The notes beneath the pieces are model-generated. The model worked only from the letters and a program-made list of their open reading frames with translations, ran no database searches and was not told the DNA's origin. Below, piece after piece: positions 6,276-43,474 of a DNA stretch of 64,000 nt. Position 1 is the first letter of the stretch; each line of letters starts with the position of its first letter. This stretch comes from Antedon mediterranea (taxonomy: Eukaryota; Animalia; Echinodermata): the NCBI RefSeq assembly GCF_964355755.1, contig NC_092679.1, positions 4,866,201-4,930,200 on the forward strand. Reading direction: 5' to 3'. The translations under genes and the position numbers were made by a program.

Positions 6276-6277
6276 AC

Positions 6278-11501: not shown

Positions 11502-14500
11502 ATGGCTGCTGGTGTAAGTACCGTTTCTTAATTGATGAAAATCAATGTTTTAAATTTTAATCCGTTGAAATACCTAGATATCATATAGCTGAAAATAAAA
11601 TATAACATTTAATTAATATATTGTATACTTTATTTTGTATTTATATTTGCCAGACGCTGTACACCTACCCCGAAAACTTCAGGGCTTACAAAATCCAGAT
11701 TGCTGCAAAATACAGTGGTGCTGACGTAAAGGTTGTGCAAGATCCTCCAGCCTTCAAACTTGGAGAAACTAATAAATCTCCTGACTTTTTAAAAAAATTT
11801 CCTCTTGGAAAGGTAAATTGAATGTCTCTGTGTATCTAAATGTAGGATATAAAGTATAATGAATGTGAAAGTATTTTAATATAATATAAATAATATACTC
11901 TAGGCTAGGCCTCCTACTTTTTACTAGCTAGGCTAGGCTAGGCCTACTAGACCTAGCTAGTTAGGCCCCTAATAAATTATCACAACTTAAAAAAAAAATG
12001 TTTTATTGAACAAAGTGGATTCCAGCAGATTGATCAGAATCAACGCAATTAATTGGTCATGCATGCACATTTTTATAACTTCATGCCATGTACAACTACA
12101 AAGTTTCGCGCTAGTTCCATTTCGCACCTGTCATTTATTCAACTCAAAATTTGTTTTTAGTAACTTTATCGTGATTACCACACTTTAGAATTAGGCCTCA
12201 AAAATACTTTTACGATGGAGATCACACAAAAAGTAACAAATAAATCCTTTAAATTGATGAATTTATGCACTTGTCAATTGTATGACACACTATACGACCC
12301 CCGGGAGAGGTGCGTCATGGGTGCGTCATTTACAAATAATTACTGTCGCAGGGGTGCGTCAAAAAACCTAGATGGTACGTCACATCAATGAACAAGGTGT
12401 GTAAATGTCAGTCACTTTACCACCCATCATATCATAAACAACATGGTCACAGTGCGTCAAAATGGGTGCGTCATGGTCACCTAAAGGTAAGTCGCATTTT
12501 TGACGCACCGGTGCGTCATGGTATTCAAAGGTATGACGCACATCGGACAAATGACGCACCTCTCCCGGGGGTCGTATAGTGGGTCATACAATTGACAAGT
12601 GCATTACAGACGTGTTTCTCGCATATCGGTTTGTGAATTTCACGTTCAATGCTGTTGTTTCTATGGAGCGCCAAAAGAGCAATCATAATAGAGAGCTGAA
12701 AACTCAATATAATGCGTATATTTAATGCATTTATTGGTGAAAATTGCGTTCACTTTTAATATATTTTGTCAATGTCGATGCAACAAAACCCTAGGCCTAA
12801 ATCAGCATCACTACCTAGCCTACTAGGCCTCTAACTAAGACTAAGAGGAATATTATTTAGATCATTGAGGTATAAACCTACAGTACATGTAATATGATGA
12901 TGAATTTTCATTCTTTAACGAAAACTGCGAAAACCATGTACAGTATTAAGAATAACATTTTGTATTGACATTGACAAAATATATTAAAATTGAACGTAAT
13001 TTTCACCAATAAATGCATTAAATATACGCATTGAGTTTTCAGCCCTCTATAAGGATTGCTCTTTTGGCGCTCCATAGAAACAACAACATTGAACATGGCG
13101 TATTCGAAATTCACGAACCGATGTGCGAGAAACACGTCTGTAAATTCACTGTAAATTCATCAATTTAAAGGATTTATTTGTTACTTTTTGTGTGATCTCC
13201 TTCGTAAAAGTATTTTTGAGGCCTAATTCTAAGGTGTGGTACTCACGATAAAGTTACTAAACAAATGTCGAGTCTAAATAAATGACAGGTGCGAATTGGA
13301 ACTAGCGCTTAAAGTTTAACACCAATTTTTCCGACTGGTTGGCTGACTTGTAGTCTAGTGGTTTTGTATGTTCAATTCTCGATCAATTTTTTCCATTTTT
13401 TTGTATTCAAAAAAATGTCTTTTATTCACCATCGTCTTTATACATCATTGTCTTTACCAACCATTGCCTAGAGGGATGTTTTTTTTAGGTTTTAATTCTC
13501 AGTGTTAGTTTCTATCGGAATCTATTCAATGGTCAGTTGAGTTCCGGTGCCGGAATCCTAACCACAGCGTTTATTGAAAACCTCATTTTGTACTAGCAGC
13601 TGTGTGTTAAAATAAATACATAGGCTAGAGAGGCTAGGTAGTTAGGACTAACTAGCATATAGGCTTTTAGATAGAAAGAGTTTGTCAGCATGCCCAGAGC
13701 TATTGTTTTAGCCCCAGCCTTTAACTTATTTCACTATAGGCCTAGCTAGTCTTGATAAACTTGTTGCATCCATCGTTTTGCGCATGTGTATATGTTTTTG
13801 AACGTGCGCAGAATGTCAAATGATTTTCCGATGTAACTACAGGCCAACCTAGAAAACTTAATAAAAAGCAAATTTACTTTTGACAAAATTAGGTTCCAGC
13901 CTTTGAGGGAAACAATGGCACTCTACTCACAGAAGCCAATGCAATAGCTTTCTATGGTAAGTACAGGCTGGTATAAAGTAACATTTATATAACCTACAGT
14001 CGCGTGCGTGCAACGCGACTCGATAGCTCACTATGTCAGTAAATACTCAAATTTGCACAATTGGCCTTGTTGAAATAAAAAAGAATAAGGAAAGTCACAG
14101 TAACCTGTTAATTGGTTTGTAACTAAATTTCTCACCTTGTGCAGTTGCTAATGAGACGTTAAGAGGCAGCAATGTACAAGACCAAGCGCAGGTACAGATG
14201 TTTGTGAACTTGGCTGACAATGAGATCTTGCCCTCTGCATGTAACTGGGTTTTCCCAACCCTTGGCATCATGCAGTTCAACAAACAGGTTAGTAAATTTC
14301 TTTATTTCAAACATTTTTAAAGTGGTCCAACATTTTAACGTTAAATTCTTCCTTTTGTTGTTTTTTTATGCCAATAAATGATGACTTGTTTCGGGACGTA
14401 ATCCTGATTATTATTGATGAACGAATTACTGATATTGGCATTTCAACTCCTATATTTTTCCGGTAATCCTTGTGTTTCATGATTTGATTGACAGGAGTTC

Positions 14501-17500
14501 TTTAGGATAGATAGTTCTTTAATCTGGCTGCCGTTAATCCTTCTCATTCATTTTCCATGTCTACTGCCACTTCACAATGTAACAATCCTTTTACAATTTA
14601 AATCCATTTAAAGACCCCTTCCCTGCAATTTTGGACGTTTTTTAGAAAATAATACATATATATCACTTTAAAAATATTAAACCATGTCATTCCTTGTCTT
14701 AAATGTACGTTTTATGGTAAATTATGATAAAAAGTGAGAAACTATGCACTACCTAAGTAGCTCGCGGCGATCGACCTCTCGTGGACGGTCTTAGGCCTAG
14801 CCTAGCTAGGCTTAGTTTTGTAGGCCTAGCTGGTAAACATTGGTAACGTACGAACATCATACGCTAGCTATATACCTAGTCTGACTGTGTATAGTTGCTG
14901 CATTAATTGTCTTTCTATTTTTGCCAGACTCAGTTGATACAAATTGGGGAAAACCCGGTATTTTTGCTGAAAAGTTAAGAGTCTTCCATTTGTTTTGGCC
15001 TCACGATCGATCGAAAATTGGGCGAATTACAGGTGAAAAACAAAAATATCAATCCGCGCGCAATGCATTTTGGGATTTATAGTGGGCCGCTATAATTATT
15101 AGAATCGACTTATTTTTCACATTTTTAACCGTTTAAAGACGAAAAAAGTTATCGCGATAGGACCATATAGTATTATTTTTACATTAAATGTGACCCGATC
15201 TCGCAAAACCCTCTCTTTGTCGGCAATTCAAAATTCACGTAATCAGTCAAAATACGTCCAATTCGACTACCCTGGCAGATTACATGTTTTTGCATTTTCG
15301 AAATATTTCACTATTTAAGAATACGTATACCTGATTTAAACTCCCGAAATTTATTTAAAATTATGAAAAAAGAAAGTTTTAAAAACATGTATTTTCCTCA
15401 AGCCTAACAATTTATTCACGATCTACGCTAAAATTTTGCGTAAATTCAGTTGAAAGTTGCCGAGTTTGACGACATTTTGATCACCAGTTCGCTGCACAAT
15501 GTTGAAAGGTCACACATCAAAATAAAGCTCATCCATTTGACATTCCAAATATGGAAGTTTTAGGGCGGAGTTTAAAAAAGGAACCAATGAAATCTTTGAT
15601 TTACTATGACATAATTTCAGAAAATTCGGTTCTTCGAAGTTTCTGGAACAGCGAACTGCGTGTGTTGCTATGGCGCATCATCGCAATAACAAACGTTATT
15701 GGTCAACGCGCTAGATGTTATACGCTCTACGCGCGGAAATAAAAAGTTGTTTACATTTTGTGAGGTTATTTTCATTTTACACACAGCATGTCGTAAATTG
15801 GAATAAAAACGATTTTAATATTCAAAGTAAAGTGTTCGGCGTGTTCTGCAATAGCTGTAGCCTGTATTTGTTTATTCCATAGTAAAATAGACAAGTCAAA
15901 AACAATTCACGTCATAAATTCAATTGTATTTTCTATATTTTTTTGGGCTAGGCCTTAATTTTATTATGGTTGTAGGCCTACTACTACTGGGCCTAGCATT
16001 ATTGTCAATAATAGTTTTCTTTATACATTTTATATATCCAATCGGCTCTTAATTATTTATTTAATTTATTGTCCAGTCCATTCATATTAAATGTTTTTTT
16101 TAATCATTGGATTCAAGTCCAAAGATTACAGCGAATCTTCCACGTTATCAAAAAAATAAATGTATTAAATAGTCAATACAATGTTTGTAGCTAGCAAGTT
16201 GTGACTCTGCAAGGCGCCAAACTTGTCTAGGGGTCATTCCATCTCAGTTCACCCAAAAAAAATGGAATTTTAAACCCTACCTCTTCCAATTTTGATGAAA
16301 TTTGGTATATGGGTGATTCATAGCAATTAAAGCCAACATTTCAAATTTTAACTTTATCGGACCAACGGTTTTCGAGATATCGCAATTTCAATTTTCGGTT
16401 TTTACGCAAAAAAGCGCGCGGCCGCCACGTTTCAAAGAGCTGTATCTCGGGAACTATAGGTTCGATTTTAAAAACAAAGGTATTTTTGTAAAGGGGAGAC
16501 CATAAGGAACCTAAATATACTAATTGTGTTTGTTTTATGTTAATTTTAAGTTGAATAAAACTTTGACATATATTTTGACCTTGAAATTGACCCCGTGGAA
16601 CACGCCCGATTTGTTGGTGACTATCACGAAAAATGTAGCCCTACGTGTCAACTACAACATATAAAAAAATTGGAGGGGTTTTTTTCTTTGTTTCCATGAA
16701 ATTACAATTTGAAGTTGACATACCTCTTCCTTTTAGTGTATTTTTGGTGTTGTTATACTTATACACAGTGTGAACACTAACTGTTAAGGTGTCTTATTGT
16801 TACGCTTTCTCATCAGGCCCACTTAAACAGTAGATGTATTTTGATATGAGAAATACTGGGTAACTCACATACTTTTCAAATCAATTTTGACACATAGTTT
16901 AGTGTCCTTACTATGTTATTATGCACATTAACATATGCATAATAAGTGATTGCAGAGAACATACAACAGTTACTGTATATGCCTTTTTAAAGGTTGTCAT
17001 CCCCTATATAAAAACAAAACTACCAACCATGAAAAAAGTTCATTATTTCACAGATGGATGTGGCGGCCAATACAAAAACAAATATTACTTTATTAACCTT
17101 TGCCACTACCAGGAAGATTTTGGTTTAGACGCCGAGTGGAATTTTTTCGCTACATCACATGGCAAGAGTGCGTGTGATGGCATAGGTGGAACAGTTAAGA
17201 GGCTTGTCACTAAGAGAAGCTTACAGCGTTTGACTGAATGTCATATTATCACATCTCTCAGTATGTTCGACTACTGTGTAATTTTTTATTTCTATTTTAT
17301 GTCTTTAGGCAATGTGGCCAAGGATTATCAATAGTGAATTAGTCACTGTCCTATCAGATAGGTGGTAATCCCCCTGATACAGGGGCTATTGTGTGAACCA
17401 GTTCACCGGGGTAACCCCCTACTCTTTTTCGAATAATGAACTGGGTCCTTTAAAGTACACACATGTTATAACTGTGTACACTGGACTATGGTTTATAGTC

Positions 17501-20500
17501 CTTATCCGAGAAGACTTGAAGAGAGGAGCGAGTCGGCCTCGAACCCTTGCCGATGTTGTTGTCTTTTAGGTACGGTAAACGGCGCCCCTGCCTTAACCGC
17601 TCGGCCATATGACTCGCTCATATGGACATTCCAGGCATCAACTTTTTTCATGTGGGAATAGATGAGGTATCTACTGTAGAAAAAGAAATAAAGCCGAGAT
17701 TCAACCTCGCCCAGACCATCAAGGGTACATTACAATATCATCGCTTTGTTCCCGTTTCTCTGGCACAGATGCAGGTCTACAAACTTAGTACCCAGATAAA
17801 CCCTCCGGATGTGGTAGTGATTCAAGAATCTTTCAGTGATGAAAATGAAATTGTTGCTGATACACAACCCACCATTATTAGACTTCAGAATTTTGTGTGC
17901 TGTAGTTATGATGGTGTCCCATGGATTGGTTTGGTGGTGGATGTCTCACTCTCAGAAGAGTTTGGGGATTTTCAAATTAAATTTATGCATCCTCATGGGT
18001 CAGCGAAAACCTTTTATTGGCCGTCCAAAGAAGACTGTTGTTGGATTCCTGAATCAAATGTACATTGTATTATAGCCTCTCCGTTTATAAAATCCTCTCC
18101 GTTTATAAAATCCTCTTCGACTAGGAATTACAGTATTTCCCAAAATGATCGTCACAACATTTCTAAATACTGTTTGAATTGTCCAGATGACAAGGAGTAA
18201 AGGCCAGACATAGACAATTGTAACATTATAATAATATTTAGTTTGTAAATAAAATTAATTTTGGAATACATCAAATTGACATTGAAGTAATGCATGGACA
18301 GACACCAAAAATACACTAAAAGGAAGAGGTATGTCAACTTCAAATTGTAATTTCATGGAAACAAAGAAAAAAACCCCTCCAATTTTTGTATATGTTGTAG
18401 TTGACACGTAGGGCTACATTTTTCATGATAGTCACCAACAAAACGGGCGTGTTCCACGGGGTCAATTTCAAGGTCAAAATATATGTCAAAGTTTTATTCA
18501 ACTTAAAATTAACATAAAACACACACAATTAGTATATTTAGATTCCTTATGGTCTCCCCTTTACAAAAATACCTTTGCTTTTAAAATCGAACCTATAGTT
18601 CCCGAGATACAGCTCTTTGAAACGTGGCGGACGCGCCCTTTTTTGCGTAAAAACCGAAAATTGAAATTGCGATATCTTGAAAACCGTTGGTCCGATAAAG
18701 TTAAAATTTGAAATTTTGGCTTTAATTGCTATGAATCACCCATATACCAAATTTCATCAAAATTGGAAGAGGTAGGGTTTAACTCATTGGGTGATCTGAG
18801 ATGGAATGACCCCTAGGCTAGTTTACTACTAACGCCGGCCCAGTGTCGATGCACCGCTGCCATACACGGCAACCCATCAGTAAAGGCGATGAGGCGAAAA
18901 TCTGAATAGGCCTAGGCCTAGGCCTGCTTGGTTTTTCGCTGTTGATATCGTAAACACCTACGAAACCAGTTAAAATAAGCTTGACGTTATAATGCTGCTT
19001 TTCAATAGTGCAAAATAGTTAATTCGAGTGACTAAATAGGTTAAAACGGGGTCTGAAATCAGTCAAATTGACTATGATGTGCACGCTGCTATTATCGCAC
19101 ACACTTCCTGGTATGACGTCATTGTGCCTTAGACCAAAATACCGCGTTGCTACGGAGTGAGTTTTCAGCGCGTATCAAAAAGAATTTCATTGCAAACTTC
19201 AAACGCGATTTTCTCGTAAACTAATTGAATGATTTGTAAGTTTTTAAAATGTAATAACTTTTTAAATATTTACTCAATTTTTATGAAATTAACACCACTA
19301 CAAAGCTTATGATTAAAATAATCCAAATATGTAAAAAAATACAAAATGAATATTTCCGACAAAAGTAAGGTTTTGCCAGATCGGGTCACAAATATAGTTT
19401 GTGATCTTAAATTAGATCTAAAAAACGTAGGGAAGGGGGCTTTAATATTAGAGAGCTTTCTATTTGCGATGACCGCTCTGCGTCATGTAATTGCTGTGAT
19501 ATTGTGTCCTCGCTCCCACCTCAACACAATTTTCATAATTTCTAGGTCCCGACGACGAACGACAACTCATCCATTGTCATTGACCTGACCTAGTTGGTCA
19601 AATTAAAAACTCACTATTGAACGGAGAATAAAAATTGCAGTACCTAAAAAGTTGTATTTGTTACTAAGATTTTTATAAAATAATTTTTTTTTAAAGAACA
19701 CAGAGCGTGCCAAAGAGGAGCTTAAGAATGTGATGTTCTACCTTAATGAATACTTGACAACAAGGACATTCCTTGTAGGAGAACGTGTCACATTAGCTGA
19801 TATTGCTGTTGCCTGCAATCTGTTGATGCTCTACCAGAAAGTAAGACTTAATTCTTATCGCTAGTGAAAAATGTACCAACAAAATACATTGCAAATACAT
19901 AACTAAAAATATTACATTTTTAAAGAATTCATTCACATTTCTATCTTTTGCCAATAAATGATGACTTACTTCGGGACGTAATCCTGATTATAATTGATGA
20001 ACGAATTACTGATATTGGCATTTGGATAATTTTCTTGGGTTCTAGACCAAAACAAGCTTTATGTTAGCCCTGATTATAATTCTATAATTCTTTAAAAAGA
20101 TCATTAAATATTTAAGTAACTTGTTTTATCGAATAAATTCGTAAAATTATCTATTTTGATCAAATAACCAGAAAACTGCAATACAAATATTGTATGAACT
20201 TCTTCATATCATGGCAGGTGTTTGATCCCAGTTTCCGTCAGCCATATGGTAATGTTACCCGTTGGTTTGTCACAGTAGTCAACCAACCTGAAATTGTTGC
20301 GGTCATCGGCAAAGTAAGCCTTTGTGAAAAAATGGCTCAATTTGACGGTGAGTAATAAATAAGATTTATATGTTAGAAAGAGGAGCCTTCAGACATGATT
20401 TTATACAAAAGGTTTTGTTTAAAATAAAAAAAAGAAAGCCAGCAGATGATGACTTGTTTCGGGACGTAATACTGACACATTTTGATGAATGAACGTCTGA

Positions 20501-23500
20501 TGCTGGCATTTTTTTTTAAATATTTCATTTTAATGTAACATATTAGTTATCCACTTTGACAAAAAATTGGATAAGAAAAAATTGTAATTACCAGAAAAAA
20601 TGTAATTTAAAGCAAAAAATGGTCAAATTGGCTACCAGCTAATGGGTTTTTGGTTGAATTTAACCATATATTTTGTAATTTTATAAGTGAAAACATTATT
20701 TTTTTAAATTTTTTCTTCTATGGAAGTATTTTACACTTTTTGTCCATTTTTAATCCTAGTTGGTTTTTTTTTCTGAAAATTATATAGCATGCTACATAAA
20801 AATAAACAGGACTAGGGATTTTTTTTTATGTTCAATATTATTTGGTACTAATTATTATGGCATTTGAATACAGCAAAGAAGTTTGCTGAAATATCTGGAG
20901 GGGGAAAGAAAGCAGACCAAAAAAAAGAAAGAAAAGACAAGAAGCAAGAGAAGCCACCAAAGGAAAAGAAGGCAAAGAAAGAAGAACCAGAAGATGATGA
21001 TTCGGACATTGTTCCTCCAAAAGCAGACAAGAAAGATCCTTTTGCACACCTACCTAAAAGGTATCTGTAGCAACCTACCTATTCAGTTGACATGCTTTTG
21101 AAAACACACATTCATTTGTATCAAGTATTTAAAAAAATATGTGTATTTATTTTTTTAACTTTTAGCACGCTTGTGTTTGATGAATGGAAAAAAATGTTCA
21201 GTAATAATGACGCTTCAGTTTACATGCGATGGTTTTGGGAAAATGCAGAATTTGAAGGCTATTCCATTTGGCATGGTGATTACGATTATAACTCTGAACT
21301 TAAAATGACATTTATGGCTTCAAATTTGGTTACAGGTAAGTGACCATGAATGAGGGAAACTTTTAAACATGGAGTCTACTCCCTTGATAAATTCAGCTTA
21401 AATTGTTGAGATAAGCTTTTAATCAAATGAAGAAATAGTTCTTGAAAATGTTGTGAAGTTGCATCCTTACCATGCTAGCGTGAAGTGAAGGATGTCTATT
21501 TTGCTGGTAAAACAAATCATACATGCCATTTTTAGACGGTGGTTGTACAGTGTACAATGCAGTTAGTGTTCTAATCACGCTTCCCCAATCTTACGGAACT
21601 TGTAAATAGATATTGATTATTGTTTATATTTACAGGCATGTTTCAACGAGTTGATAAATTGGCAAAGAATGCTTTTGCTTCTGTTTGTGTAACTGGCGAA
21701 AACAATAATTGTCAAATATCGGGTGTCTGGATGTTCAGGGGTCAAGAATTGGCATTCAATGTAAGACCTCTTTTTAATTTTTTTTTTTTTATTTATTCAT
21801 TTAGCATCCATTTAATACATTTAAAATACATAACAAAGAAAAGACATAAGAAAGACATAATAAAAAATCACATATAAAATGTTACATATTGTTGTTTTAA
21901 ACCCATTTCATTGTATAATTGACCCAGGAGCTGACTAATTTTAATAGAATGTTGAATTAAATTTAGTTGTACATTACAATGTTTAGATTAGACATGGTCG
22001 TCATATGGCAACATTGCCTCTATATCAATTATCAGCATATGCAGCCTGCCTGGAAAAAGTTTTTTATCACAAACAATATAAAATAATAAATAGTTTTCGT
22101 TTGTGATTTATATGCTTCTTATTCACTCACGAAAACATTGCAACACACCACAAACGAACTACGTCGGCGGAATGTCCATTCAGCATGTTTGTTATTGTGC
22201 GATATTTTCATCTATACACATGCGCAGTTTGTTTGTTCGTAATTACAATTACTGCGCATGTCTATTCATAAAATAAATTCTCCTTTGTCAGCCACGTGTA
22301 CATTTACAGATAACGCGATTTACAACTACTCGTCTGTACAATAAATAAGCCTCCTAACGGAAAACTCGTTTTAATTTATTCGAGTGACGCTAAATAAATG
22401 TCATTGATAGCAAGTAACGCTACATCGCTGTCACTTATTATAGGCTGGCGGCGGCGAAGCCTAACTAAGCGGATGAAACTTGAGTTTTTAAGGGAAAATT
22501 ATTTTCGCAAGTTTTGTGAATGATATATTTTTTTTTTTCGCAAATTTACAACTCCAATCGCAATTTGCGAAATCGCGAATGGGTAGCGTGAGCATAGACA
22601 TAGGTCGGTGTATGTCAATATAGGTCGGTGTATGTCAACATAGGTCGGTGTATGTCAACATAGGTCGGTGTATGTCAACATAGGTCGGTGTATGTCAACA
22701 TAGGTCGGTGTATGTCAACATAGGTCGGTGTATGTCAACATAGGTCGGTGTATGTCAACATAGGTTGGTGATGTCAACATAGGTACCTACCAAAGCACTA
22801 CAATGCTGTTACGTTTTAAGTACGATGCCATTAAGATGCCACTAAGATCTACCACTGCCACAATTGACCAAAAATTGAATGTGGAAAGTATGGTAGTATG
22901 GATATTATACATACTGTATATTGCCTGCTTAGAGGTAAAATATAAAATTTGACATCCCCTAATGAAGAAATAAAATTCTCGAGCATAATATCATTCCCGA
23001 GTGGATGTCAAAAATTAATCATATATTTTACCAATATAAAAGGCAATATCTGTTATCGTATACTGTAGCCAACAACAAGTAAAATATTTACTGGGTCGGG
23101 TAGCTGGGCCTCCTTTATGTAATAAGCCTCCTGCCTATAGTTAGGCGTTGCATTTACCCTACCATGCGAAGAATAATATATAGATAATTAATGATTCCTT
23201 GGCAATAAAATATTCACTTAGGCCTAGGTTGTTTAAATAATAACAGAAGAATTTCCATCAATAAGCTTAAATTAATAATAATATTATTATCAGGTAGGCC
23301 GAATCTATATATAAATTTACGTAAGGGCAAAATTCGGTAAATCGCGCGTTACTTCTAGAATGTTTACTCGATGGTATATAAAGTTGGTTCGTACTGTCGG
23401 TACTGATTTTAACCACCTGATATAACCCTGTTTACTAATTAAATTGAGTTAGATCATTAGTTATTGACAATTAAAACAAATTTAGGTTCAACGATTTGCC

Positions 23501-25625: not shown

Positions 25626-25923
25626 AGCTCTGCCCATACTATCAAACTTTATGTGGCAAAAAATGTGATGTGCCCATATATGGACACGATGATGTCATAT
25701 CACTACCATATTTGGGCACAACACACTTGCCAAATTAGTTTAATAGTTTAGAAAGAGCTTAAAGCTCTGTGTACACTATCAAACTAGTTTGACGAAAAAA
25801 GTGTGATGTGGCCAAATATAGTAGTGATATGCCCAAATATGGTAGTGATATGACATCATCATGGCCATATATGGGCACATCACATGTTTTTGTCACATTA
25901 GGTTTGATGGTGTAGACAGAGCT
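25626..25923. mobile_element. Two adjacent, oppositely oriented Harbinger-like MITEs
   Basis: Each has agctctg...actatcaaact / agtttgat...agagct termini separated by TAA; the internal gatgtcatatcactaccatatttgggca is inverted between copies. A partial copy lies at ~49430-49550. Confidence 0.7.
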
Positions 25924-26309
25924 TAAGAAGATGTTATTGTTCTATACGTATTTAACTTCAAACATCACATTCTGGCATAATATCAGTACTATCCATTGTG
26001 ATGTGCACATATATCAACCAAGTCATTTATGCATGATAACAAGACTATACTCTGGCATGGTTGACCATTATTACCAAATATGGTTGCATCATTATGGATA
26101 TGAATGTCTGTATTTTGGATTATTAGCCATACAGTACATAGTGAGATCAACGTCTTGACGTCCTCCATTTTATATTTGCTACAGACCAATGACCCCATTT
26201 TTTTGGGCAGAAACAATGTCAGCATAATTATTGAGTGGATAATAAATATCTGCACATAATATGAATTGTTGAGTTTTTGTATTATTGAATATATTATATA
26301 TCCAAAGGT

Positions 26310-26580: not shown

Positions 26581-26626
26581 CTAAAAGCTAAATCAAAACG
26601 ATAAAGTAAAACAGCCAGAAAAGTTA

Positions 26627-26668: not shown

Positions 26669-26699
26669 AAGTGTAGTTAATATATATATATATTTTTTT

Positions 26700-28717: not shown

Positions 28718-29503
28718 TGACTAAAAAACTGTTCTGATGAGCCGGGAACTATTACAGTATCATATTAAAATTATTAAATTATATAAATCTGAACGACTGC
28801 AATAGGTCGGGATCAGAGAGGTCAAAATGCGTAATTAACTTTTTTCAATTAAGATTTTATAGTTGTTGATTATAGGGTAATGAATATTTGATGAATACAA
28901 GTCGTTTATATTTCTCGTGTTTTTATTACTGTAGCTCAACCACCATTGTGATCACCTTGTTAGGAGCCTTTTGTGTTACATTGTCAAACTTGTTACTCAT
29001 ATACAATAAAAACACAACTCAACTCGGTGAACTCCAAACCTGAATGAAGGGATGTTCTCTTGAAAAGGTTCAATGGACCGAATTCCATATCTCCTTTGAT
29101 TTGTGTTTAGAAACCAATGCTCCATTCAGCAAAAGCGGCCATGTAAATCGACACCCTATTTTTATGTAAATTTTCACAAGAATAACTAAGAATGAGGGAA
29201 ACTGAATAGGTGCGATTATTTGGACTTTCAAAAATTATAACTGATGTTCAGCAGCACGGCTTCGTGACAAAGTATGCACGGCTTCGTGACAAGTGTCATA
29301 TTGTATGTCACATTTTAAAAGGCAGAAAACAATGAGTTAGATCTACTGATGTTCGATGGAATATTTAAAAAATCCATTTGATTTTGCATTAAATATGCGT
29401 ACAATATTAATACCGGGTTGAGATGAAACGCTTTCAAAAGTGATCATTCTGCGACAATCTCAGATTTTTATCAGATAGTCAACAAATCAGTTTTTTAGTC
29501 AAT

Positions 29504-32500: not shown

Positions 32501-35500
32501 GTTACTGAACATTGGTGGTTAAATTTAAACCAGTGACATGAGCTTTGACAGTAAATTCACATCCAAACATACAGTGTTAGGCCTATTATACTTACTTGAC
32601 ACTTATACTAGAGACAAGTTTAGTTTGTGCTATCAACAGTAATAATATACATTATATAATTATATTATTTTTGTAAAGTTTATATCTTTCACTAAATCTG
32701 GTAAGTTACTGAACATTGGTGGTTAAAATTTAAACCAGTGACACGAGCTTTGACAGTAAATTCACATCCAAACATACAGTGTTAGGCCTATTATACTTAC
32801 TTGACACTTATACTAGAGACAAGTTTAGTTTGTGCTATCAACAGTAATAATATACATTATATAATTATATTATGTTTGTAAAGTTTATATCATTCACTAA
32901 ATCTGGTAAGTTACTGAACATTGGTGGTTAAAATTTAAACCAGTGACATGAGCTTTGACAGTAAATTCACATCCAAACATACAGTGTTAGGCCTATTATA
33001 CTTACTTGACACTTTATACTAGAGACTAGTATACATTTGAAGTTATATAGTCCAGATAAAGTGGTATAACGCCTGCGATATGATTTGACATTTGCATTAA
33101 CTGCATGAGTGATAACGTATTAGCTTATTTTGAATAGTGCTACCTGTTATGAAAAGTGTATAGAATAGTTGACAATTTGACATAACACCAGGATTTAATA
33201 TTATTATTATTGTATAGATTAACCTTCAATAATATTAGGTTAGGTGAGTTTAGAAAGTGACATGCAACAAACCTCTCCCGAACGGTGGCAAAGTATGGAA
33301 CAAATGTTTAGTAATGTTTGTAAACAGTTAATTATTCTTGTAATAAACTGTAACATTTATTCTTATTCTTGTTATTTAGAAAGGTTCTTTAAACTATGGA
33401 ATGTTCACATCTGAAGAAACCCACATCTCTTCCTAACTTTTTGTCAAACTCACAAAATGTTTTGAAATACGGTCTATCAAAAATAAGTGTCTTTGTCATT
33501 ACAGTGTTGCATTAGTCAGAAATTTCATTAAGAACAGTTAAATCATTACCAACAAAACAATTGTGTGTTATATTGTTGATTTTAACGGTCCATTAAGGAT
33601 TTAGGCCCGTCGATAAGTTATGAAGGTGTGGTTACATGGCTGAACTAATTTGGTAGAAGTTCAGTTCGGTTGCTTAACCATAATCGTCATAACCATGATA
33701 CCATAGGCTATACTGATTTGAGACCAATTATATCGATTATCGATCCACCAAATCGATCAACAAGAGATATTGGATTGATAATCTCATCTCTTAAAATTCT
33801 CCCATCTTTCCACGGTTCATGTTTCTACGTACACCTACACCATTTATTTATTGTTTGTCGTCAGATTTTCCTACATTCTTTCTTGCTTGTCCAGGTCGCC
33901 CGTTAAGCGCTATATTAGGCCTTTACACTGTAATTTACCAAATGCACTGCTAATTTTTTATTTTAACAACCAGAATTTTTTTCCCCAGAATGTTCTTTTG
34001 GTTCTAACTTACTCGGTGGTTAGGAAAACTTTGTACTCACAATAAGAAATGTTACGTTTCTTTTCTGTTAAAGTTTCGGTTTGTTCCTAAAATAATTTTA
34101 TTGTGGGCTTTTATAAATTATATATTAAATAAAAAAGTACTACAGTATCATTAAATCGATGCAATTATATATGCCTATAAATCCTTATATCTAATAAAAA
34201 GACAAATACAACACTATTTTGTTATATATCAACATGTTCAGTCAGAGAACGTCTCGAAAGATTAGGCATTAGTTCTGTATAACACCATTATTAAACACGT
34301 ACTTTTAATAATACTCTATTGTAACGATCAAGACAAGGATTTCAAGATAATTTCTGTAATACGATAATCATATTCTGTCTCGATACACGCCGAAGGGCAT
34401 ATCGGTTGAGTTAATAATTTCAATTACTTTCGAAAAACGAAACAAGGATTTGTGCCTTATAATCGTTCACCTGGAAATATTCAATTCATCTGTATATTTT
34501 TGCATTATTGTTGGTCTTTTAGGTAAACTCCTTTCTTCTTTCATAAATATTTACTCGCATACCGATTCGTTCAAACACCGTTGTTATCAATGCCTCAAAC
34601 GGCTTTATTACTGTATTTATTATACTTGACCTCTAAAGAATCAAATGGTTGTAATCTATTTTTGATACCACTGAATTGTAACTAAACAGTACACGACAGA
34701 TTACGTCGTAGAAAATGTTAACATTAATGTTATATTATTGATGAATGAAGAATATTTAATATTTTATATTCAACAAGGTATATTTATTATATATCAAAGA
34801 AATTATACAACCAACGAAAGGCTGAAATGAGTACAATTTACAGATATAAACACAATTATTGTACATTATATAAACATTAAAACAAACATGTAGCATGGTT
34901 GTTCTCATAGTTAATATATAACTTCAATTGTATTATATAAATGGGGACATGAAGTGACTGCTCGATATTGAATTAAAGAACTTGTCAATGTTTATTTTAC
35001 AGAAAATGAGGCATATGCTTGGTTTTTAAGACGCTCACATCCCGGTAACAACGCAGAATTATTGAAAAACGCAATAACTATTAAGAAAAGGGTAAGTATA
35101 CACCACAACTGTTCTTATTTTTTCTTCTGCATGCCTACCTCTCTTTACCGGTTGATTCCCAGAAAGATGCACAATTACGTAAGGACGTACGCGCAACGCA
35201 AGTCATTTTACCAATCACAAATGGTCTAATGCGAACTAAGCTTAAGTTAAAATGATAAATTCTTATAACGAAGTTACATTTGTATAGGCCTAGTCATGGA
35301 GAAAGATATAGTTATACATTCAAATTAAAGTCTTTGTTTTTACTTCACAGGATTCTTCGGCTGTTTTAACAAATGTTTCAAATCGTGGTACAACTAGCCA
35401 CGAAGACGAACTCGTAGAAAAACATGTACTTTTAAATGAAGATCGAAGAAATTCGTCGCTTGGAGTACACATTGCAGGCAGCATAGAAAAAGGAATATTC

Positions 35501-38500
35501 GTCAAGCACGTTGTAGAGGGCAGTATTGCTGAAAATTCTCAAGTTATATTCCAAGGCAAGTATGAGGTTTCTGTGATAAAATAAAACTTAAGAAATAACA
35601 CGATTGCGCTTCTGTATTCCAAAGTATGATGTACATTTCATGTACTTTTTTAGAGACATTGTTTTATAACAATTCATTATGATGTTCAGTTTATTGAACA
35701 CTTTCCAGGCAATTCGTTTGGAAATTGCTGTCGAAAAGCTAATGGTTCCCACCAGGTCACGACGCAACGCAAATTATTTGACCAATCACTATGATAATTG
35801 TCAAGTTGCGCGCGCGTACATCCTTGTGTTGCGTCCTTTAGTGGAAACCAAGTACTGTAACAGATCATCCGAACTGTCCCAATGTTATTGATTAAATTAT
35901 AGGGCCTACAAGCTTTAATATTACAGACAGTTATTAAATAACATTTTTTTGTTTTTATAGGTGATCAAATATTGAGTGCTACAATACATTTTGAGGAAAT
36001 ATCCTACCCAGATGCCCTCAGTATTCTACAACTATCGGCAAAATACAAATTTGAACTTCATCTACAAGGTTCACCAACACCACCAGCAACTGAATTCAAT
36101 CAGCCACAAGCGTTTGAAACTATCCCAGAGCGTCCACTGGAGACGCCTATGATACCAGAACTGTTTGTAAATGCTGAAAGCCCATCAGAGTTACCTGAAG
36201 GAAATACGCTAAGACAGGCTAGCTCTTTACCGACTATCTATGAGCCTCAGTCTAAATTGAATAAACTTGTGCCTTTTGAAAGGACAACTTCATTACCAAA
36301 GTCTGTGGCAATAACTCACCATAAGCCTGCCAGTTCAATAGATAGTGGTGCTGTTTTTAATGACAATGACGCAGAAATTCAACTCGTGACATCTTCAATA
36401 AACTCAATAGTAGATTCTGATTCAGATGACGTCATTGACTTTTCAGAGCCAATAAATGCACTTAACCCTGACCTCACGCATTCACGTAACGAGTCCGATA
36501 CACCAGGATCTATACAAAGCCTTTCAATTTTTGATTACAGAACTCCGTCGGTGTTAAGTAACGAATCAAGTGAAATAATATTACCTACAGAAAGTACATC
36601 TTCACTTGGATCAAATACTGAAATTAATTCTTTAACACCGACTGATCATTCAGCTACAGAAGAAGATATTGATACAATTGACGAATTACCTTTTGAACTC
36701 AGAGAACGAATATCTATTCCACGTAGCCAGAGAAGCTCAATCAATTCGTATATACCCGCTGATCTTGGTGATTTTGTTAGCGAATTCGAATTGGAAATGA
36801 GTTTGATTAGTTCAAATAACAGTGAAAATGAAGTGTTTTTTTCCAAATATAATGAAAGTCGTGAAGAAGTCGACGAAGATGCTGCAACCTTAAATTCTAT
36901 AAAACTTGTTGATGAACAAAGCATTGATAAGAAAACAAACAATAGTGAAGATATAGGAGATCTTGCAGCTGCCATCCTCGATTGTAAATCCACTAATAAT
37001 ACAGATAAAGAAGACAAGAAACGTTACTCTTCCACTCCTATTTCGAAAGATACAGGAGTGAACAACGATAATGTTGTAAATAGTGGAAATGTATTATCAA
37101 ATACTTCGAATAGCAATAAAGAAAAATATGCTTCCGACGATATGTTAGCTGATACAAACATAAGATCTTCTTTATTTGATGAAGTTAATGGTAATAACAA
37201 AGACAACATTGGACATGACAGTTCTGAAATCAAACACCCGGTGGACAAACCAAAAGCAAGGGTAACGTTTTCTCTAGACAGAAATACAGAGAAACATTAT
37301 CCGAAAAAGAAATCTGGATTTGGATTTCATTTACCAAAGCTTGGTCGAAAACATTCGCCAAAGGATAAAATTAGAAAACAGACAGAAGAAACTGCAATGG
37401 CGGATAAAGCGACAGAGAATGTGGCGAGTGTAAGTGATGTCTTTGATGTTAAGACTTCTGGACTTGAGAATTTCAGTGAGGGCGTTGATACGCCAGATAC
37501 AATTGTAACAAGTACAGTACAAACGGAGGCCAATGCGCCAACCACCGTTGTCAATACTGCAGAAGGAGAGGTTGTTGTAACTTTGCGTTCAAAAAAGAAA
37601 GATAGTTCTCTCACCAGAAAAGTAAGCAGTCTTCTTCGGAATTCGTTTGGAAGTCGACTCTCAAAAGCAGAGATTAATTCAGATAGCAGCTCTGACGAAG
37701 ATGTCAATCCAGATGTTAAAATTGAAAATGAACCTGTTGAAGTAAAGAAAACTCATTCCTTAAACTTTTTAAAAAGAATGTCTAAAAATCTGGACGTGGA
37801 AGCTAGTGAAAGTATTCCTGTAAATAATAAGCAAGCGAAAGAAAGAAAGAAAGTAACTGTTGATAAACTTGACAGCAATATTCAAGAAAAAGATGTGGCA
37901 AGTGAACCCCATGGTGCGCATGTACTGGGGATGTCAGTTGACGACAACGAAGAAATGCAACAAAAGCTCGAATCTTTAAAAATAACAAAGTCTGGTAGTC
38001 TTGGTAGAGCACTGAATGTTTTTAAACCAAAACGTCAGACACGATTTGCTGCCGATATGTTTGATACTGACGAGGATTCTAAATCGTTACCTGGAACTCT
38101 ACGAAAAAGCACAGGTGAGTTCCAAGCATTAGAAGCTGCCATATTGTCTGGTTCCATTGACGATATTCTATCACCGATTACAAATTTAGAAACCTATGAA
38201 GAAAATGAAAAGGCTGCCGTTGACGAAAACGTGGAATTAGACTTTAAAGAGAAACACGAACCAAGCGAACAGAATAAGTTTATTGACACAAATGAAACTG
38301 CGACGAGTGAACAAATATCATCTGAAAACACGTCTAATAGTAACATTGATACAGCCTTAGAAAATGATTTCGTACTTGCCATAGAAGACTCACAGGATTA
38401 TAATACGGTCAACAAAACTGAGGATGAAATTGTTCATGATCTGGCCGTACACGCCATTGAATCAGCTATTGCTGAAACTAAAATTGATCATAAGAATAGA

Positions 38501-41500
38501 AGTTTTGAGTTAGGAGCGAAGGAAGAAATTACGGCTATGAAAGAACAGCACAGTATGTCAAGGATGGATTTCTTTGGAGTATCATACAGTGACCCTTCAA
38601 ATGACCCAGTATCACCAAAGTCGGATGTCAATTCGAATGATCTGGAAGTTACAAGTGACTTTGAATTCGGTATACAAGCTGCAGGTGACAGTAAAGTTAA
38701 GCACAAAGAGGAAAGTAGGAATGATAACAGTAACACTAACAATAGTAATGACGGTTCTAGCAATAGCAGTAACGATGGTAACAGTGGTAGCAATAACGAT
38801 AATAACCATGGTAGCAGTAACCATGGTAGCAGTAACGATAGTAACAGTGGTAGCAGTAACGATAGTAACAGTGGTAGCAGTAACGATGGAAACAGTAATA
38901 ATAATAATAACAACAACAACAATAACAGCAAAGAAAAAGCGTCCAATGAAAACACGAACGACGAAGAGAAAGAAGAAGTCAAACCTCACAAAATTAAAAA
39001 TAAGGATACCAACGTATTTAATTTAAATAATAATGCAAATGAGAATGAAAATACAACAGATGATACCAATGCTAGTGGTGCAACAAAACAGTCAAAGGGT
39101 AAAGACAAACAAAAGAAAGCGAAAAACAAACGAAAACCTGACGAAGGGAAATTGCCAATTCCAAGTAATCTTACATCTTCTAGTCCAGTTGATGATCAAC
39201 CAGCAATTGTTTTGAAACAAGATGTAAAAAAACAGAAGAGAGGTGGATTTGGAAAGTTATTTGGAAGAAAAAAAAATAAACGCCCTCCTCCAATAGGCGA
39301 GAATGAAGAAGTACATCAGTTTACGTCTGAAGAAGCTGTTAGTTCATTTGAGGACACGGCAACCGGTGATGCATCTTCATCGGCGAGTGGCACTGATAGC
39401 ATAGATTCTAGTTCAACTAAAATAGATGGGCAAAACAACGGTGGTAAATCAAATGGTAAAAAGAGAAGAGCTCCGAAACCACCAATAACGGAAGAAACAC
39501 CGACTCCAACAACACCGGAGAAAAATGAAGATTCGCCATCTAAAGACAGACATATCTATTATAAACAACGATCATTGGATATGCCTGATAATGGCCAGCA
39601 AACACCAACAAAAACCTGCACCAAAACGTATACGCCACCAATACAGAAGAAAATATTAATGAAGAAATCATCAGCACCATTGCCACATGAAAGTGACATG
39701 ACCAACTCGCATTCATTACCAAATCTAAGCAATATAAGCTGTTCTTCAGATCAGGGTGTATTTGATATGTCAGCTTCGATCCACAGTAATGAGGATAGAT
39801 CTCTATCTGGCAGTGGATCGAATCTGTCGCAGCTTTCGGTTGAGGTAAAGAAACTTCCGCTTCCAAAAGGAGCGGCACCACCAAAACCAAAACGCCGCCA
39901 ATCTTCAGATATTCATGACGATAATACAGCGGATGTGAGTGAAACTGATGTTATTACAACACCAATGTCGGACGTTTTCAGTGACAATGATTCGCTACTT
40001 TCGGAGATATCACGGTCACTTAGCTCGCCTGAAATGATGAGGTCTGACGTATTTGATAATGATGATACCAAAACAAATGACACAACATATCAAAAGGATA
40101 AGGAAACACCAAAAATAGATAAGAAAAGTGATGTTCCACCTGAGAAGAAGGATAACGATGGAGATACACGCGTTGAAGAAAGGAAGAAACAGACGATAAA
40201 ACATGAAAACGACAAAACCGTTAAGTTAAATACCCCTCAAGTTAATACAAAGATAATTTCTCCAACTATAGAAGAGGAAAGTCAACCCGGACTTCAGACG
40301 TTTTTGCGTACAGGCCAGGCAACTAACGATGCCTTGAAATTTAAACAATCTACTGAAGTGAAAACATTGATGCAGAAGCTGTTAACGAGAGAGGATAAAG
40401 AATTAACTGAAAAGAAATCTGAAACCACTGAAAGCAAGTCCGTGAAAAAGAAGAAAGAAATAAAGTTGCAAAGAACATATGCCTTGGACAATGTAACCAC
40501 ACCATCGCCTTCAGAAACTGAGAAGAAATTAACGTTGGACAAGGACACGCCGCCTTCAAAAATACTTGGTACTTTACGGAGTTCTAGTCAGGAGATTGAT
40601 ATTGAAACTGATGCAGAACCTATTGAAGACAGCAAGCCTATAGTTAGTCCGACTGGTTCGAGGCTGAAGAAAAGGCTTTCTGCATCTCAACTTATATCTT
40701 TAGATGGAGATAGTAAACAACCTCGATCTAAGCCAAAAAGTCGTACGGTATCATTTGATGACACAACGGAAGTAATCCCGGATAACGGCTATATAGAAGA
40801 GCCTGAACGACCCGGAGAGCAAACAGATGAGAAAGTAGAAACAGTTACCAATACTAAAGCACAAGTTACATCTCATGAGCCCATGCAATTTCAAGAAACT
40901 CAGAAACCGAAAACAGATACAAAAGAGGATGATGCCAAACAAAACACTACAACAACTTTCAGATCGAAGAGGCCCGTAAGTCTGTATGATAAATATGCAG
41001 CAACACCACGAATAAAGAAATCAAATAGCAGTGTCGGTGCAGAAATTGTCTCACAAACGACGCAGGAAGAGTCGAAAGAAGAACTTAGTGAACTAGCATC
41101 GTTAAGTGTAGTGAAGTCATACGCCAGTATGTTTGGTCAATCGAAAGCAACATCGAAGTGGAAAAAAACTGCTGGTGTCGGATATTACAAAGATGTACAA
41201 AGCAAACCAGAATCTGAAGATCATGGTTTGAAGCACACTGATGAACTGGCACATGTTAAACTTAAATCTACAAATGTTTTACAGGCATTGATCAAAGAAG
41301 ATATTCCTGACACTAAACCGACTGAAGTCACCTTACCATTATTGAAGCTGGACAAACAAAAACTTGAAACTCTTGAACCAAAGAAAACTCAAGCGACAGC
41401 AGTGAAAAAGACGGAAGTTAAAGAACCAGCCAAGACTACGACACAGCCATCATGGATGGATGCAGTGAAAGCAGCAAAGGCTGCACGTAAAGAAAAGGAG

Positions 41501-43474
41501 AAAGAAGGAAGACCTCAACCAGTTAAATGGAGCGACAGTGACATTCCAGACTTTTCCAGTCTTATCAATATTAGAAAGAACAAAGTACGATCAACCTATG
41601 GCGTACCAGATGAGGAGAATAACACAACAGTTTTCGACTCCACTGTCGACAAAAATACTACTGTACCAGTATCTAATGCAGAGAACGTTGATGTTATGGG
41701 ACTGTTGGCTAGTAGAAAGAAAACCCGCCTTTCTACTTATGAAGAAACAGATGATGTTAAAAATCCGGAACAATTTATAAAACCAAAAAAGTCGTCGATA
41801 ACTGAAGCAAGTCCGTCAAAGATAGATGTCAAAAATGATCATAGCAAAGAAGATAAATCAGAACCTATCGAAGAGGTATGTATTAAGGAAATCGATCAGA
41901 AAATAGAAAGCATAGCCAGTGCATCTAGTAGTGATACCGATAAGGACACTAACAATTGTTCTGATATCGCCTCTAGTCCCGTTTCGGACGACAGTTGTCC
42001 ACAAACAAGACCAACACGCAGCTTGACAAACAGTACTATTTTAACAACAAGTGAAAAGAAAACTATAGATAATGTCAAACAAGAACTCACAGACTCAGCG
42101 AAACCGATGAGAAAACGATCAGATACAACTGGTGATGAAACCCCGTCTGTTTTTGCTGTAATTAAAAACAGACTGAATGAAATAAGCCTTAGTAATAGTG
42201 ATGACAGGGAGGAAAAACTTAGGAAGATTCGTGAACGAACACAATTAATATTAGCTGGATTCAATTCGAAAAAAGATAAAGACCAACAAGAGAAGTCGTC
42301 AGCAGACGACTCCGTCATTAAGAGAGAAACGCTTTCACAAGAACAGAAACAACGGAGAAAGACTATACAATCAGTACCTATGTCTATACAATCTGAACTG
42401 CAGATGAGAGATATAAATGTCAGTAGTACAGCCAGTGAAGATACACTGGAACCTGACAGTGAATCGCAGCAAGAATTTCAATTAAAAGAAATTACTCCGG
42501 AAAAGAAGGTGAATCGTAAGAAAATGTTGAAATCGTATGCTCAGCAAAAAATACTACAAATCGAGACTTCAGGAAATGACGCTTCAGATGAGGATGACTC
42601 TGTTGTTGAAGTTGAAAGGTCAACTAAATCCTCAACACCACAACGATCATCGTCAATTAAGGCGCGCGATAGAAACAGCGCGCGCAGTATAACTTCAAAC
42701 GATTATTATAGAGTTGCTGAATCAAGAAGTAGTGGGTATAACTCTTTCTCTGATATCGGAAGCCCAACTTATACTAGTAGTTCGATAGAATACGAAGAAG
42801 AAAAACGCGATAGTACAATACGAAGAATAAAATCAATGACACACGATGAGCTTCAAAACTTTGTGTTGAAACAACAAAGAGAAATGCAAGAACTGCGAAG
42901 AGAAATTAAAGAATCGGCAAAAAAGAAACCAGAACCGGAAATTTCAAATTCGATTGAAGCATCAAGTTCTAAATCTGAAACGAGGTCTAGGGAATCATCT
43001 GTATCACAGCAACCTCAAATGCCTATGATGTTTATTCCACCGGGAATGTTTATGATGCCGGGAATGTTTCAACAACCAGGAATAGCAAATCAAATGACGC
43101 AACAACAACCAATCATGCCACAACCGCATTCAACCATGATGCATCAACCAACTACCATAACACAACCACACGCAATGCCTACAGGTTCTATGCAACCAGC
43201 AACTGGAATGCCATCGCAACCAGGTCTTGGTATGATGCCGCAGATGGTATCAGGGATGGTACAGCAACCACAGCTTCAGGGAATGGCAGATCCTGCGATG
43301 ATGCCTCTTCTATACCAACAGCAGCAAATGATGCAGTATCTTTTGCAGACCAATCAAACTGGTGGTGTTCCAGCTGCTACTAGTAAACAGACGATTCAGG
43401 GAGTAGGCGGCTATTTACAGAATGAACAGACTGCTACTGAACCCGTTCCTAATACTACATTTAAACACGTTTAG
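29504..43474 (+). CDS. Giant (~2614 aa) AHNAK/AHNAK2/periaxin-family PDZ protein with a long disordered tail
   Basis: Exons 29504-29540 (MGNSCCVGHQRK, phase 1), 35003-35091, 35351-35555 (LGVHIAGSIEKGIFVKHVVEGSIAENSQVIFQ, GC donor) and 35961-43474 (GDQILSATIHFEEISYPDALSILQLSAKYKFELHLQ...). The PDZ matches the periaxin/AHNAK2 signature GIFV...EGDQLLS...FFEN.KYEDAL..LQ...YK. The 7.5-kb exon is fully open. The first exon is the least certain. Confidence 0.85.
32412..33026. repeat. ~204-bp tandem triplication in intron 1 of the PDZ gene
   Basis: Units start aagtttagtttgtgctatc at 32412, 32616 and 32821 and are nearly identical. Confidence 0.95.
38720..38930 (+). repeat. Coding low-complexity Asn/Ser/Gly/Asp tract
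   Basis: Repeats of agtaacgatagtaacagtggtagc and (AAT/AAC)n encoding NDSNSGSS...NNNNNNNNNN. Confidence 0.9.

What the first reader, a model, noticed from the sequence alone, without database searches (positions are those of the whole stretch)
11502..43474. EEF1G directly followed by an AHNAK/periaxin-type gene: apparent ancient microsynteny with human 11q12.3
Seen: EEF1G ends at 25444 and the next gene, on the same strand, has an AHNAK/PRX-type PDZ. Known: in human, EEF1G lies immediately upstream of AHNAK in the same orientation. Inference: this gene is the invertebrate pro-ortholog of AHNAK/AHNAK2/PRX, and the pair has stayed adjacent since a common ancestor. That is notable because the family is mostly described from vertebrates.
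Basis: partly seen in the sequence, partly recalled or inferred. Interest (0 to 1): 0.85.

Follow-up and report, generated by a model that had tools for sequence, protein, structure and literature searches.

The report
Ancient EEF1G–AHNAK gene pair in crinoid
In this feather star the housekeeping gene EEF1G sits directly in front of a gene with the distinctive PDZ domain of the vertebrate scaffold proteins periaxin and AHNAK2; published gene tables put EEF1G beside an AHNAK-family gene in hagfish and frog too, so the pair has likely stayed together since the common ancestor of echinoderms and vertebrates.

Summary
Confirmed. A 10-exon EEF1G (11502-25444) is followed about 3.6 kb later, same strand, by a 5-exon gene for a 2644-aa protein. 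Both match Antedon mediterranea RefSeq proteins exactly; one RNA-type contig carries all four introns. Its PDZ is of the periaxin/AHNAK2 type (PDB E 2e-10 and 1e-9, next 0.019; family versus other PDZs 100/99), shares an intron site with 3 of 3 vertebrate loci, and is predicted to form an intertwined dimer. The tree follows the species tree, which fits a pro-orthologue. The family is bilaterian-wide, so invertebrate membership is no crinoid oddity. Source data of the hagfish genome paper place EEF1G next to an AHNAK-family gene in hagfish (17 kb) and frog (consecutive ids) and 116 kb away in a shark; lamprey and gar rows are unlinked. Flanking genes differ in crinoid, hagfish and human. No invertebrate intermediate could be tested; strands outside the window are unverified. 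The crinoid protein lacks AHNAK repeats and has an acylation-type N-terminus where other invertebrates have a membrane helix. Ancestral adjacency about 0.85; a regulatory cause is plausible but unshown. New member of a known kind.

The parts
11502..25444 (+). EEF1G (eEF1B-gamma), 10 coding exons: 11502-11513, 11654-11812, 13893-13956, 14145-14287, 19697-19840, 20218-20347, 20874-21060, 21166-21335, 21636-21760, 25286-25444; 430 aa
   Evidence: identical to P0161, XP_071963817.1
25445..25654 (+). EEF1G 3' untranslated part as far as a spliced contig reaches
   Evidence: run X9 record 23 and its loose end at 25286
25655..29238 (.). Intergenic spacer, 3.6 kb, repeat-rich, no gene found
29239..29540 (+). 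Exon 1 of the PDZ gene; coding from 29504; N-terminus with Gly2, Cys5, Cys6 (myristoylation plus palmitoylation pattern, recalled consensus, predicted only)
30618..30707 (+). Exon 2 (90 nt)
35003..35091 (+). Exon 3 (89 nt)
35351..35555 (+). Exon 4, first half of the PDZ domain (from about 35408)
   Evidence: (PF00595 E 5e-4, below cut-off alone)
35556..35960 (+). GC-AG phase-1 intron inside the Gly codon before the PDZ's Asp-Gln; same site in 3 of 3 vertebrate-type loci
35961..43474 (+). Giant last exon (7514 nt coding): second half of the PDZ (to about 36067), then about 2460 aa hydrophilic, non-repetitive tail ending in a Met/Gln/Pro-rich stretch

Best explanation
The window holds an intact EEF1G followed directly, on the same strand, by a gene whose PDZ domain belongs to the periaxin/AHNAK2 family; it is likely the unduplicated echinoderm counterpart of AHNAK, AHNAK2 and periaxin, and the two genes have likely been neighbours since the deuterostome ancestor. 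Protein (inferred): a membrane-cortex scaffold that would be tethered by N-terminal fatty acylation (Gly2, Cys5/Cys6), is predicted to dimerise through an intertwined PDZ pair like periaxin and AHNAK2, and would project two roughly 2460-residue disordered arms that bind partners through short motifs. History (inferred): after the vertebrate genome duplications only one copy kept EEF1G beside it. Why the pair lasts (inferred, about 0.45 on its own): the scaffold gene likely draws on regulatory DNA in or just behind EEF1G, so breaks between the two are selected against while the outer flanks turn over. Shown: gene models, splicing in one contig, family membership, rows for hagfish, frog and shark. 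Not shown: acylation, dimerisation, any enhancer, adjacency in another invertebrate.
For: Gene models equal RefSeq proteins; 4 of 4 introns in one contig. PDB: AHNAK2 E 2e-10, periaxin 9.6e-10, next 0.019. Best per-domain score 35.6-64.2 bits for the 127 other single-PDZ proteins against at most 19.1 for 32 multi-PDZ proteins. Tree of 62 domains: family versus 28 outgroup domains 100/99; order protostomes, (crinoid + Saccoglossus 81/90), (amphioxus + vertebrates 81/87). Only Saccoglossus (1 of 10 tested) shares a block beyond the PDZ (38% over 55 aa, E 0.001). Intron site shared with 3 of 3 loci. Homodimer model: score 0.77, best of 3 controls 0.08, contacts agree at least 94%, pLDDT at least 82; mark reached by 21 of 30 solved pairs and 0 of 23 single chains (microbes), 17 of 29 eukaryotic pairs but only 1 of 7 without an older solved relative; 4cn0 and 4cmz are solved, so the pass may be from memory. 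Synteny, PMC10972751 source data: hagfish EEF1G chr14:49,631,849-49,663,409 then AHNAK-6 (PDZ) from 49,680,563, consecutive rows, 17 kb, PDZ part nearest EEF1G; frog eef1g and ahnak-like have consecutive gene ids on XTR4; bamboo shark starts 116 kb apart on chr45. Flanks differ: hagfish NDUFB10 and FBLN5, human TUT1 and SCGB1A1 (PMC6365579 table), crinoid adhesion GPCR and innexin-like genes. Chance of same-order, same-strand adjacency on one chromosome 0.0003-0.001 under my assumed gene numbers.
Against: No invertebrate other than this crinoid could be checked for adjacency. Sea lamprey (EEF1G chrm31; family rows chrm33, chrm17) and gar (LG2; LG16, LG28) are unlinked in the 52 of 56 family rows seen; chicken has no EEF1G row. 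The tables give no strand; the human orientation is recalled. My estimate still expects about 2-10 chance matches genome-wide. AU tests on 27 rows reject only crinoid + periaxin (p 0.03); crinoid + AHNAK2 (0.058), + vertebrates (0.22), + protostomes (0.06) and first-branching in the family (0.14) are not rejected; 85 columns, long end branch 0.97. AHNAK proper was not identified in the set. Against a regulatory cause: tandem, not head-to-head, the commonest conserved orientation (PMC3514665); the hagfish genes fall in different expression modules (salmon, darkorange2, turquoise); the crinoid EEF1G introns are under 6 kb and hold transposon-like repeats, unlike the long introns of typical bystanders. 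The single-chain fold was poor (pLDDT 50.5).
Confidence: 0.75

Rival explanations
1. The pair is ancestral but kept passively: the spacer is a small target for rearrangement and these lineages shuffle slowly, so no regulatory link is needed.
For: Spacer only 3.6 kb in the crinoid and 17 kb in hagfish; different expression modules in hagfish; unlinked rows in lamprey and gar show the pair can apparently break; no long EEF1G introns.
Against: Both outer flanks differ in crinoid, hagfish and human while this junction persists. Irimia et al. argue that pairs kept in several distant lineages are actively retained (PMC3514665).
Confidence: 0.4
2. The vertebrate pair is old, but the crinoid pair arose independently by shuffling on the same ancestral chromosome.
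For: Both genes trace to chordate linkage group A1 (EEF1G rows CLGA1; family rows CLGv CLGA1), so they were on hand to meet; 2-10 chance pairs expected genome-wide; no other human or hagfish neighbour found in the window; no second invertebrate tested.
Against: Per-pair chance 0.0003-0.001 against 1-5% of local gene order conserved between human and distant lineages; the match is to a pair already conserved from hagfish to human.
Confidence: 0.12
3. The gene is a lineage-specific paralogue or an unrelated PDZ protein; the true orthologue, with a membrane helix, lies elsewhere in the crinoid genome.
For: It alone among the full-length-looking invertebrate members lacks the membrane helix; nothing outside the PDZ aligns to vertebrate proteins; the genome could not be searched; AU tests leave its place open.
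Against: Signature 128 of 128 versus 0 of 32; family branch 100/99 and sister to Saccoglossus; shared intron; no second Antedon protein among the 21 of 150 hits looked up.
Confidence: 0.08

Closest known systems
AHNAK2 (PDB 4cn0) and periaxin (PDB 4cmz)
   Same: One N-terminal PDZ of the atypical type (E 2e-10, 9.6e-10), small 5' exons plus one giant exon (PMC10682155), intron at the same PDZ site, predicted intertwined dimer.
   Different: No central repeats (motif density 0.8 per 1000 aa against 12.5-23.5 in five vertebrate proteins, my own pattern; no self-alignment). The PDZ runs straight into the giant exon, whereas the frame closes 63-73 aa after it in 3 of 3 vertebrate-type loci. Acylation-type N-terminus instead of Met-Cys-x-Cys (29 rows).
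AHNAK (human 11q12.3) and its neighbour EEF1G
   Same: Order AHNAK, EEF1G in a human table; PDZ head and giant exon; family gene beside EEF1G in hagfish and frog.
   Different: AHNAK has 128-residue repeats. Its PDZ was not identified among my hits, so the crinoid PDZ is closer in sequence to AHNAK2 and periaxin, which are not the EEF1G neighbours (recalled).
Invertebrate membrane-anchored periaxin-like proteins (Saccoglossus XP_002732058.2, Branchiostoma XP_019647930.1, Mactra, Brevipalpus, nematodes)
   Same: Same PDZ signature, long non-repetitive tail; Saccoglossus is the closest single-domain hit (49%).
   Different: 11 such rows have a hydrophobic helix before the PDZ, most behind a signal-peptide-like start (read by hydropathy); the crinoid protein has none, and no matching exon was found in the window.
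Conserved ancestral microsyntenic pairs (Irimia et al. 2012, PMC3514665)
   Same: Two unrelated genes adjacent in distant lineages.
   Different: Their rule needs four major lineages; here only vertebrates and an echinoderm. Tandem orientation, no transcription-factor target. Neither gene is named in the main text; the pair list in the supplement could not be read.

Membership tests
AHNAK/AHNAK2/periaxin family | Single N-terminal PDZ closest to the periaxin/AHNAK2 PDZ | tested here: met
AHNAK/AHNAK2/periaxin family | Intron inside the PDZ at the Gly codon before Asp-Gln | tested here: met
   3 of 3 vertebrate-type loci L001-L003 and the window
AHNAK/AHNAK2/periaxin family | Small 5' exons followed by one giant exon | tested here: met
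   4 exons of 37-205 coding nt, then 7514 nt; human layout from PMC10682155 passages
AHNAK/AHNAK2/periaxin family | Domain-swapped PDZ homodimer | tested here: inconclusive
   model passes (0.77 versus best control 0.08, 269 contacts) but solved relatives exist, so it may be from memory
AHNAK or AHNAK2 in the strict vertebrate sense | Central tandem repeats (128 or 165 aa units) | tested here: not met
   so it is filed as a pro-orthologue, not as an AHNAK
AHNAK/AHNAK2/periaxin family | Branches outside all vertebrate paralogues, single copy | tested here: inconclusive
   vertebrate clade 99/98 excludes it; AU tests reject only grouping with periaxin; AHNAK proper not identified; copy number not searchable
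Invertebrate membrane-anchored subtype | Signal peptide and membrane helix before the PDZ | tested here: not met
   no hydrophobic 19-mer in P0001; no matching exon among 1742 window frames; the one spliced contig uses the acylation-type exon 1
Conserved ancestral microsyntenic pair | [quoted passage not shown] | tested here: inconclusive
Conserved ancestral microsyntenic pair | Relative orientation conserved | not testable with these tools
   tables give no strand; in hagfish the PDZ part lies nearest EEF1G; human orientation recalled
Genomic regulatory block | Long bystander introns with conserved enhancers acting on the neighbour | tested here: inconclusive
   introns under 6 kb with repeats and snoRNA-like copies; enhancer activity not testable

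The most novel reading that the evidence does not exclude
EEF1G and the periaxin/AHNAK ancestor form an undescribed regulatory unit older than vertebrates, and the ancestor was a type-I membrane protein whose anchor was replaced twice: by N-terminal acylation in crinoids and by a cysteine-rich or anchor-free start plus repeats in vertebrates. AHNAK would mark the original chromosomal site of the family that later gave the myelin protein periaxin.
Probability: 0.35. Interest if true: 0.7.

Novelty: new member of a known kind. Interest (0 to 1): 0.5.

Why it matters
Periaxin and the AHNAKs are studied almost only in mammals, and one review calls AHNAK2 the only protein with sequence homology to periaxin (PMC7072810 passages). 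A positional as well as sequence link to an unduplicated echinoderm gene fixes the family's pre-vertebrate origin, points to the AHNAK locus as the ancestral site, and dates the repeats to the vertebrate line. It gives a tractable single gene in which to ask what the PDZ dimer did before myelin, and a specific gene pair in which to test regulatory constraint. Ancient gene pairs are a known class of about 600, so the pair alone is a solid addition rather than a surprise. I found no paper naming it in 10 searches, but automated orthogroups already class the family as deuterostome-wide.

Tried and rejected
RefSeq accession proximity as a stand-in for adjacency: failed its control, since the two adjacent Antedon genes are XP_071963817 and XP_071961939; not used. 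No whole genome was held, so copy number and wider synteny were not searchable. Word-index protein searches found only P0001 (1 of 6 candidates) and nothing among 288 shorter candidates. The EEF1G search gave 40 proteins, none named as amphioxus, hemichordate or lamprey. Metagenome scan: 3 loci of 2-7.7 kb, all vertebrate-type; no EEF1G match appeared in the listing, which was cut at 80 rows and did not reach L003. Alternative signal-peptide or membrane-helix exon: a hydrophobic frame at 28876-29040 looked tempting but was not among the top 25 hits of a profile of 7 relatives, and such frames are common background. Homology of the crinoid N-terminus, including its Asn-Pro-Val-Tyr motif, to vertebrate or invertebrate pre-PDZ regions: not above shuffles (917 and 580 of 1000 scored as high). 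Single-chain fold: pLDDT 50.5, not searched further. No RNA holder on record was listed; X5 and X9 are treated as RNA only because their contigs are spliced. Supplements searched without a hit: PMC4729200, PMC11618098, PMC7269912; PMC8385949 gave only an unordered gene list; PMC3514665 has none readable. de Morree 2012 and Han and Kursula 2014 were not held. Earlier findings by sequence or place: none. Rfam at gathering score: none. Atlas features for the amphioxus homologue P0142 gave PDZ and Periaxin clusters (0.93, 0.92), a lead only.
Full report
What is there. The window (no N, about a third G+C) holds, on the + strand, the 3' part of an adhesion GPCR gene, EEF1G, a large PDZ gene and three innexin-like genes. 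My exon models give a 430-aa EEF1G ending at 25444 and a 2644-aa protein from five exons between 29504 and 43474. They equal stored proteins that the sources name as Antedon mediterranea, a feather star: P0161 and P0001, 'uncharacterized protein'. One contig of run X5 begins at 29239 and shows all four joints, one of them a GC-AG intron. A spliced EEF1G contig ends at 25654, leaving 3585 bases between the genes. No intervening gene was found: 139 frames from three non-genic regions reached no Pfam cut-off. DNA contigs of run X1 cover the stretch without differences in 8 listed pieces, with gaps at repeats; no single piece spans both genes.

Family. Against the PDB the protein matches AHNAK2 (E 2e-10) and periaxin (9.6e-10), then nothing better than 0.019. 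A search of 1.84 billion representatives gave 290 hits, 150 listed. With cluster members, 160 proteins split into 128 single-PDZ and 32 multi-PDZ proteins; per-domain scores were 35.6 bits or more against 19.1 or less, and a signature read from the alignment was in 128 of 128 and 0 of 32. I looked up 21 of the 150; 19 carry names: vertebrate AHNAK2, periaxin-like and AHNAK-like proteins, lamprey, hagfish, amphioxus, Saccoglossus, a clam, a mite and three nematodes. A tree of 34 family and 28 outgroup domains, chosen by me, separates the family at 100/99 and runs protostomes, crinoid with Saccoglossus (81/90), amphioxus, vertebrates (99/98); 14 of the 24 vertebrate rows and one nematode row are labelled by my reading, not by a source. 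With 85 columns the inner order is soft: AU tests reject only crinoid plus periaxin. The outgroup holds only PDZs that this query found, and AHNAK proper was not identified. The intron that splits the PDZ sits at the same codon position in 3 of 3 vertebrate-type metagenome loci.

Differences. The tail has no AHNAK repeats and aligns only to Saccoglossus, over 55 residues (1 of 10 tested). It is hydrophilic throughout (1 of 97 windows above zero), so probably disordered. Eleven invertebrate rows carry a membrane helix before the PDZ; five other invertebrate rows, short or partial-looking, are not in that list. The crinoid protein has no hydrophobic segment and starts with Gly2 and Cys5/Cys6, which fits the recalled consensus for myristoylation and palmitoylation; no alternative helix exon was found. 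The PDZ is predicted to form an extensive homodimer: score 0.77, best of 3 controls 0.08, contacts agreeing at least 94%, pLDDT at least 82; the mark was reached by 21 of 30 solved pairs and 0 of 23 single chains in microbes, and by only 1 of 7 eukaryotic pairs lacking an older solved relative, so the pass may reflect memory of 4cn0 and 4cmz.

Synteny. A human table lists SCGB1A1, AHNAK, EEF1G, TUT1 in that order at 11q12.3 (PMC6365579, passage); a goat table lists the same genes together (PMC6523453, passage). The same-strand orientation in human is recalled. The source data of the hagfish genome paper (PMC10972751; passages and rows of supplementary files 5 and 6) give more. Hagfish EEF1G is followed 17 kb later by AHNAK-6, a PDZ gene of orthogroup OG_7864, then by a further AHNAK fragment; the flanks are NDUFB10 and FBLN5. 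Frog eef1g and ahnak-like have consecutive ids on XTR4, starts 115 kb apart. One of three bamboo-shark EEF1G rows lies 116 kb from a family gene on chr45; genes between were not seen. Lamprey and gar rows are on different chromosomes, and chicken has no EEF1G row; I saw 52 of 56 family rows of a file cut when stored. So 3 of 5 testable species are linked. EEF1G and one sub-family are assigned to linkage group A1, but other sub-families carry other labels (G, B, none), so the orthogroup may be mixed. No strand is given. No invertebrate intermediate could be read.

Is it chance? Assuming 500-1500 genes per chromosome, same-order same-strand adjacency has probability 0.0003-0.001 per pair, or 2-10 chance cases among 5000-10000 pairs (my assumptions). 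Irimia et al. report 1-5% local conservation between human and distant lineages and 595 ancient unrelated pairs (PMC3514665; abstract, first third of Results, Discussion and passages). I put ancestral adjacency at about 0.85.

How it likely works. The protein is most simply a cortical scaffold: lipid anchor, PDZ dimer, long disordered arms (inferred from anatomy and from periaxin and AHNAK2 as reviewed in PMC7072810, PMC8833689 and PMC10682155, passages). For the pair I commit to a regulatory dependence of the scaffold gene on DNA in or behind EEF1G (about 0.45), because this junction persists while both flanks changed three ways. Passive retention of a short spacer is nearly as likely (0.4): the orientation is tandem, the introns are short and repeat-filled, and the hagfish genes fall in different expression modules.

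Novelty. Ten paper searches (listings only unless cited) found no paper on this pair or on invertebrate periaxin/AHNAK genes. The library lacks most subscription papers; de Morree 2012, Han and Kursula 2014 and the Irimia pair list were unreadable and may bear on this. Other papers seen only as passages and not informative: PhyRepID preprint, PMC1790709, PMC3548307, PMC8385949. Earlier AI notes had already flagged the membrane-anchored invertebrate form. Verdict: a real, probably ancient gene pair and a real family member with its own anchor; new member of a known kind; interest 0.5.

Noticed in passing
window 14371-14437, 19951-20017, 20439-20505 (+): Three copies of a C/D-box snoRNA-like sequence in EEF1G introns 4, 5 and 6; best Rfam match SNORD82 (E 0.002-0.012, below gathering score), 77-95% alike.
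   Followed up: partly
window 16270-18782: 2.5-kb element with 481-nt terminal inverted repeats (98%) and two open frames (16903-17334, 17613-18200) in EEF1G intron 4; looks like a broken DNA transposon, no transposase Pfam hit.
   Followed up: partly
window 49713-50630, 53370-54437, 59016-59954 (+), each with a short upstream exon: Three tandem, diverged innexin/pannexin-like genes; only the first hits Pfam Innexin (E 5e-9); the third models as 57658-57811 plus 59071-59954, 345 aa.
   Followed up: partly
window 1-6273 (+): 3' part of an adhesion GPCR gene (GPS motif at 2258-2614, E 1e-5) upstream of EEF1G.
   Followed up: no
window 35556-35960: The conserved PDZ intron has a GC donor, supported by a spliced contig.
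   Followed up: yes
stored proteins P0115, P0121, P0150, P0071 and P0021, P0046, P0105, P0113: A short Arg-Ser-x-Ser/Thr motif follows the PDZ in protostome and vertebrate members alike (read by eye); the crinoid and Saccoglossus have Ser-Ser-Leu-Pro motifs there. Possibly a kinase or 14-3-3 site; significance untested.
   Followed up: no
window 42990-43400 (+): Met/Gln/Pro-rich C-terminal stretch; the Saccoglossus and Plectus proteins also end in Gln/Pro-rich sequence.
   Followed up: no
window 8785-9747 (+), 55258-55734 (-), 22598-22777, 32317-33014, 46834-48000, 52350-52950, 60390-60870, 62270-64000: Reverse-transcriptase fragment (RVT_1), a second retroelement-like fragment, and several tandem arrays.
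   Followed up: no
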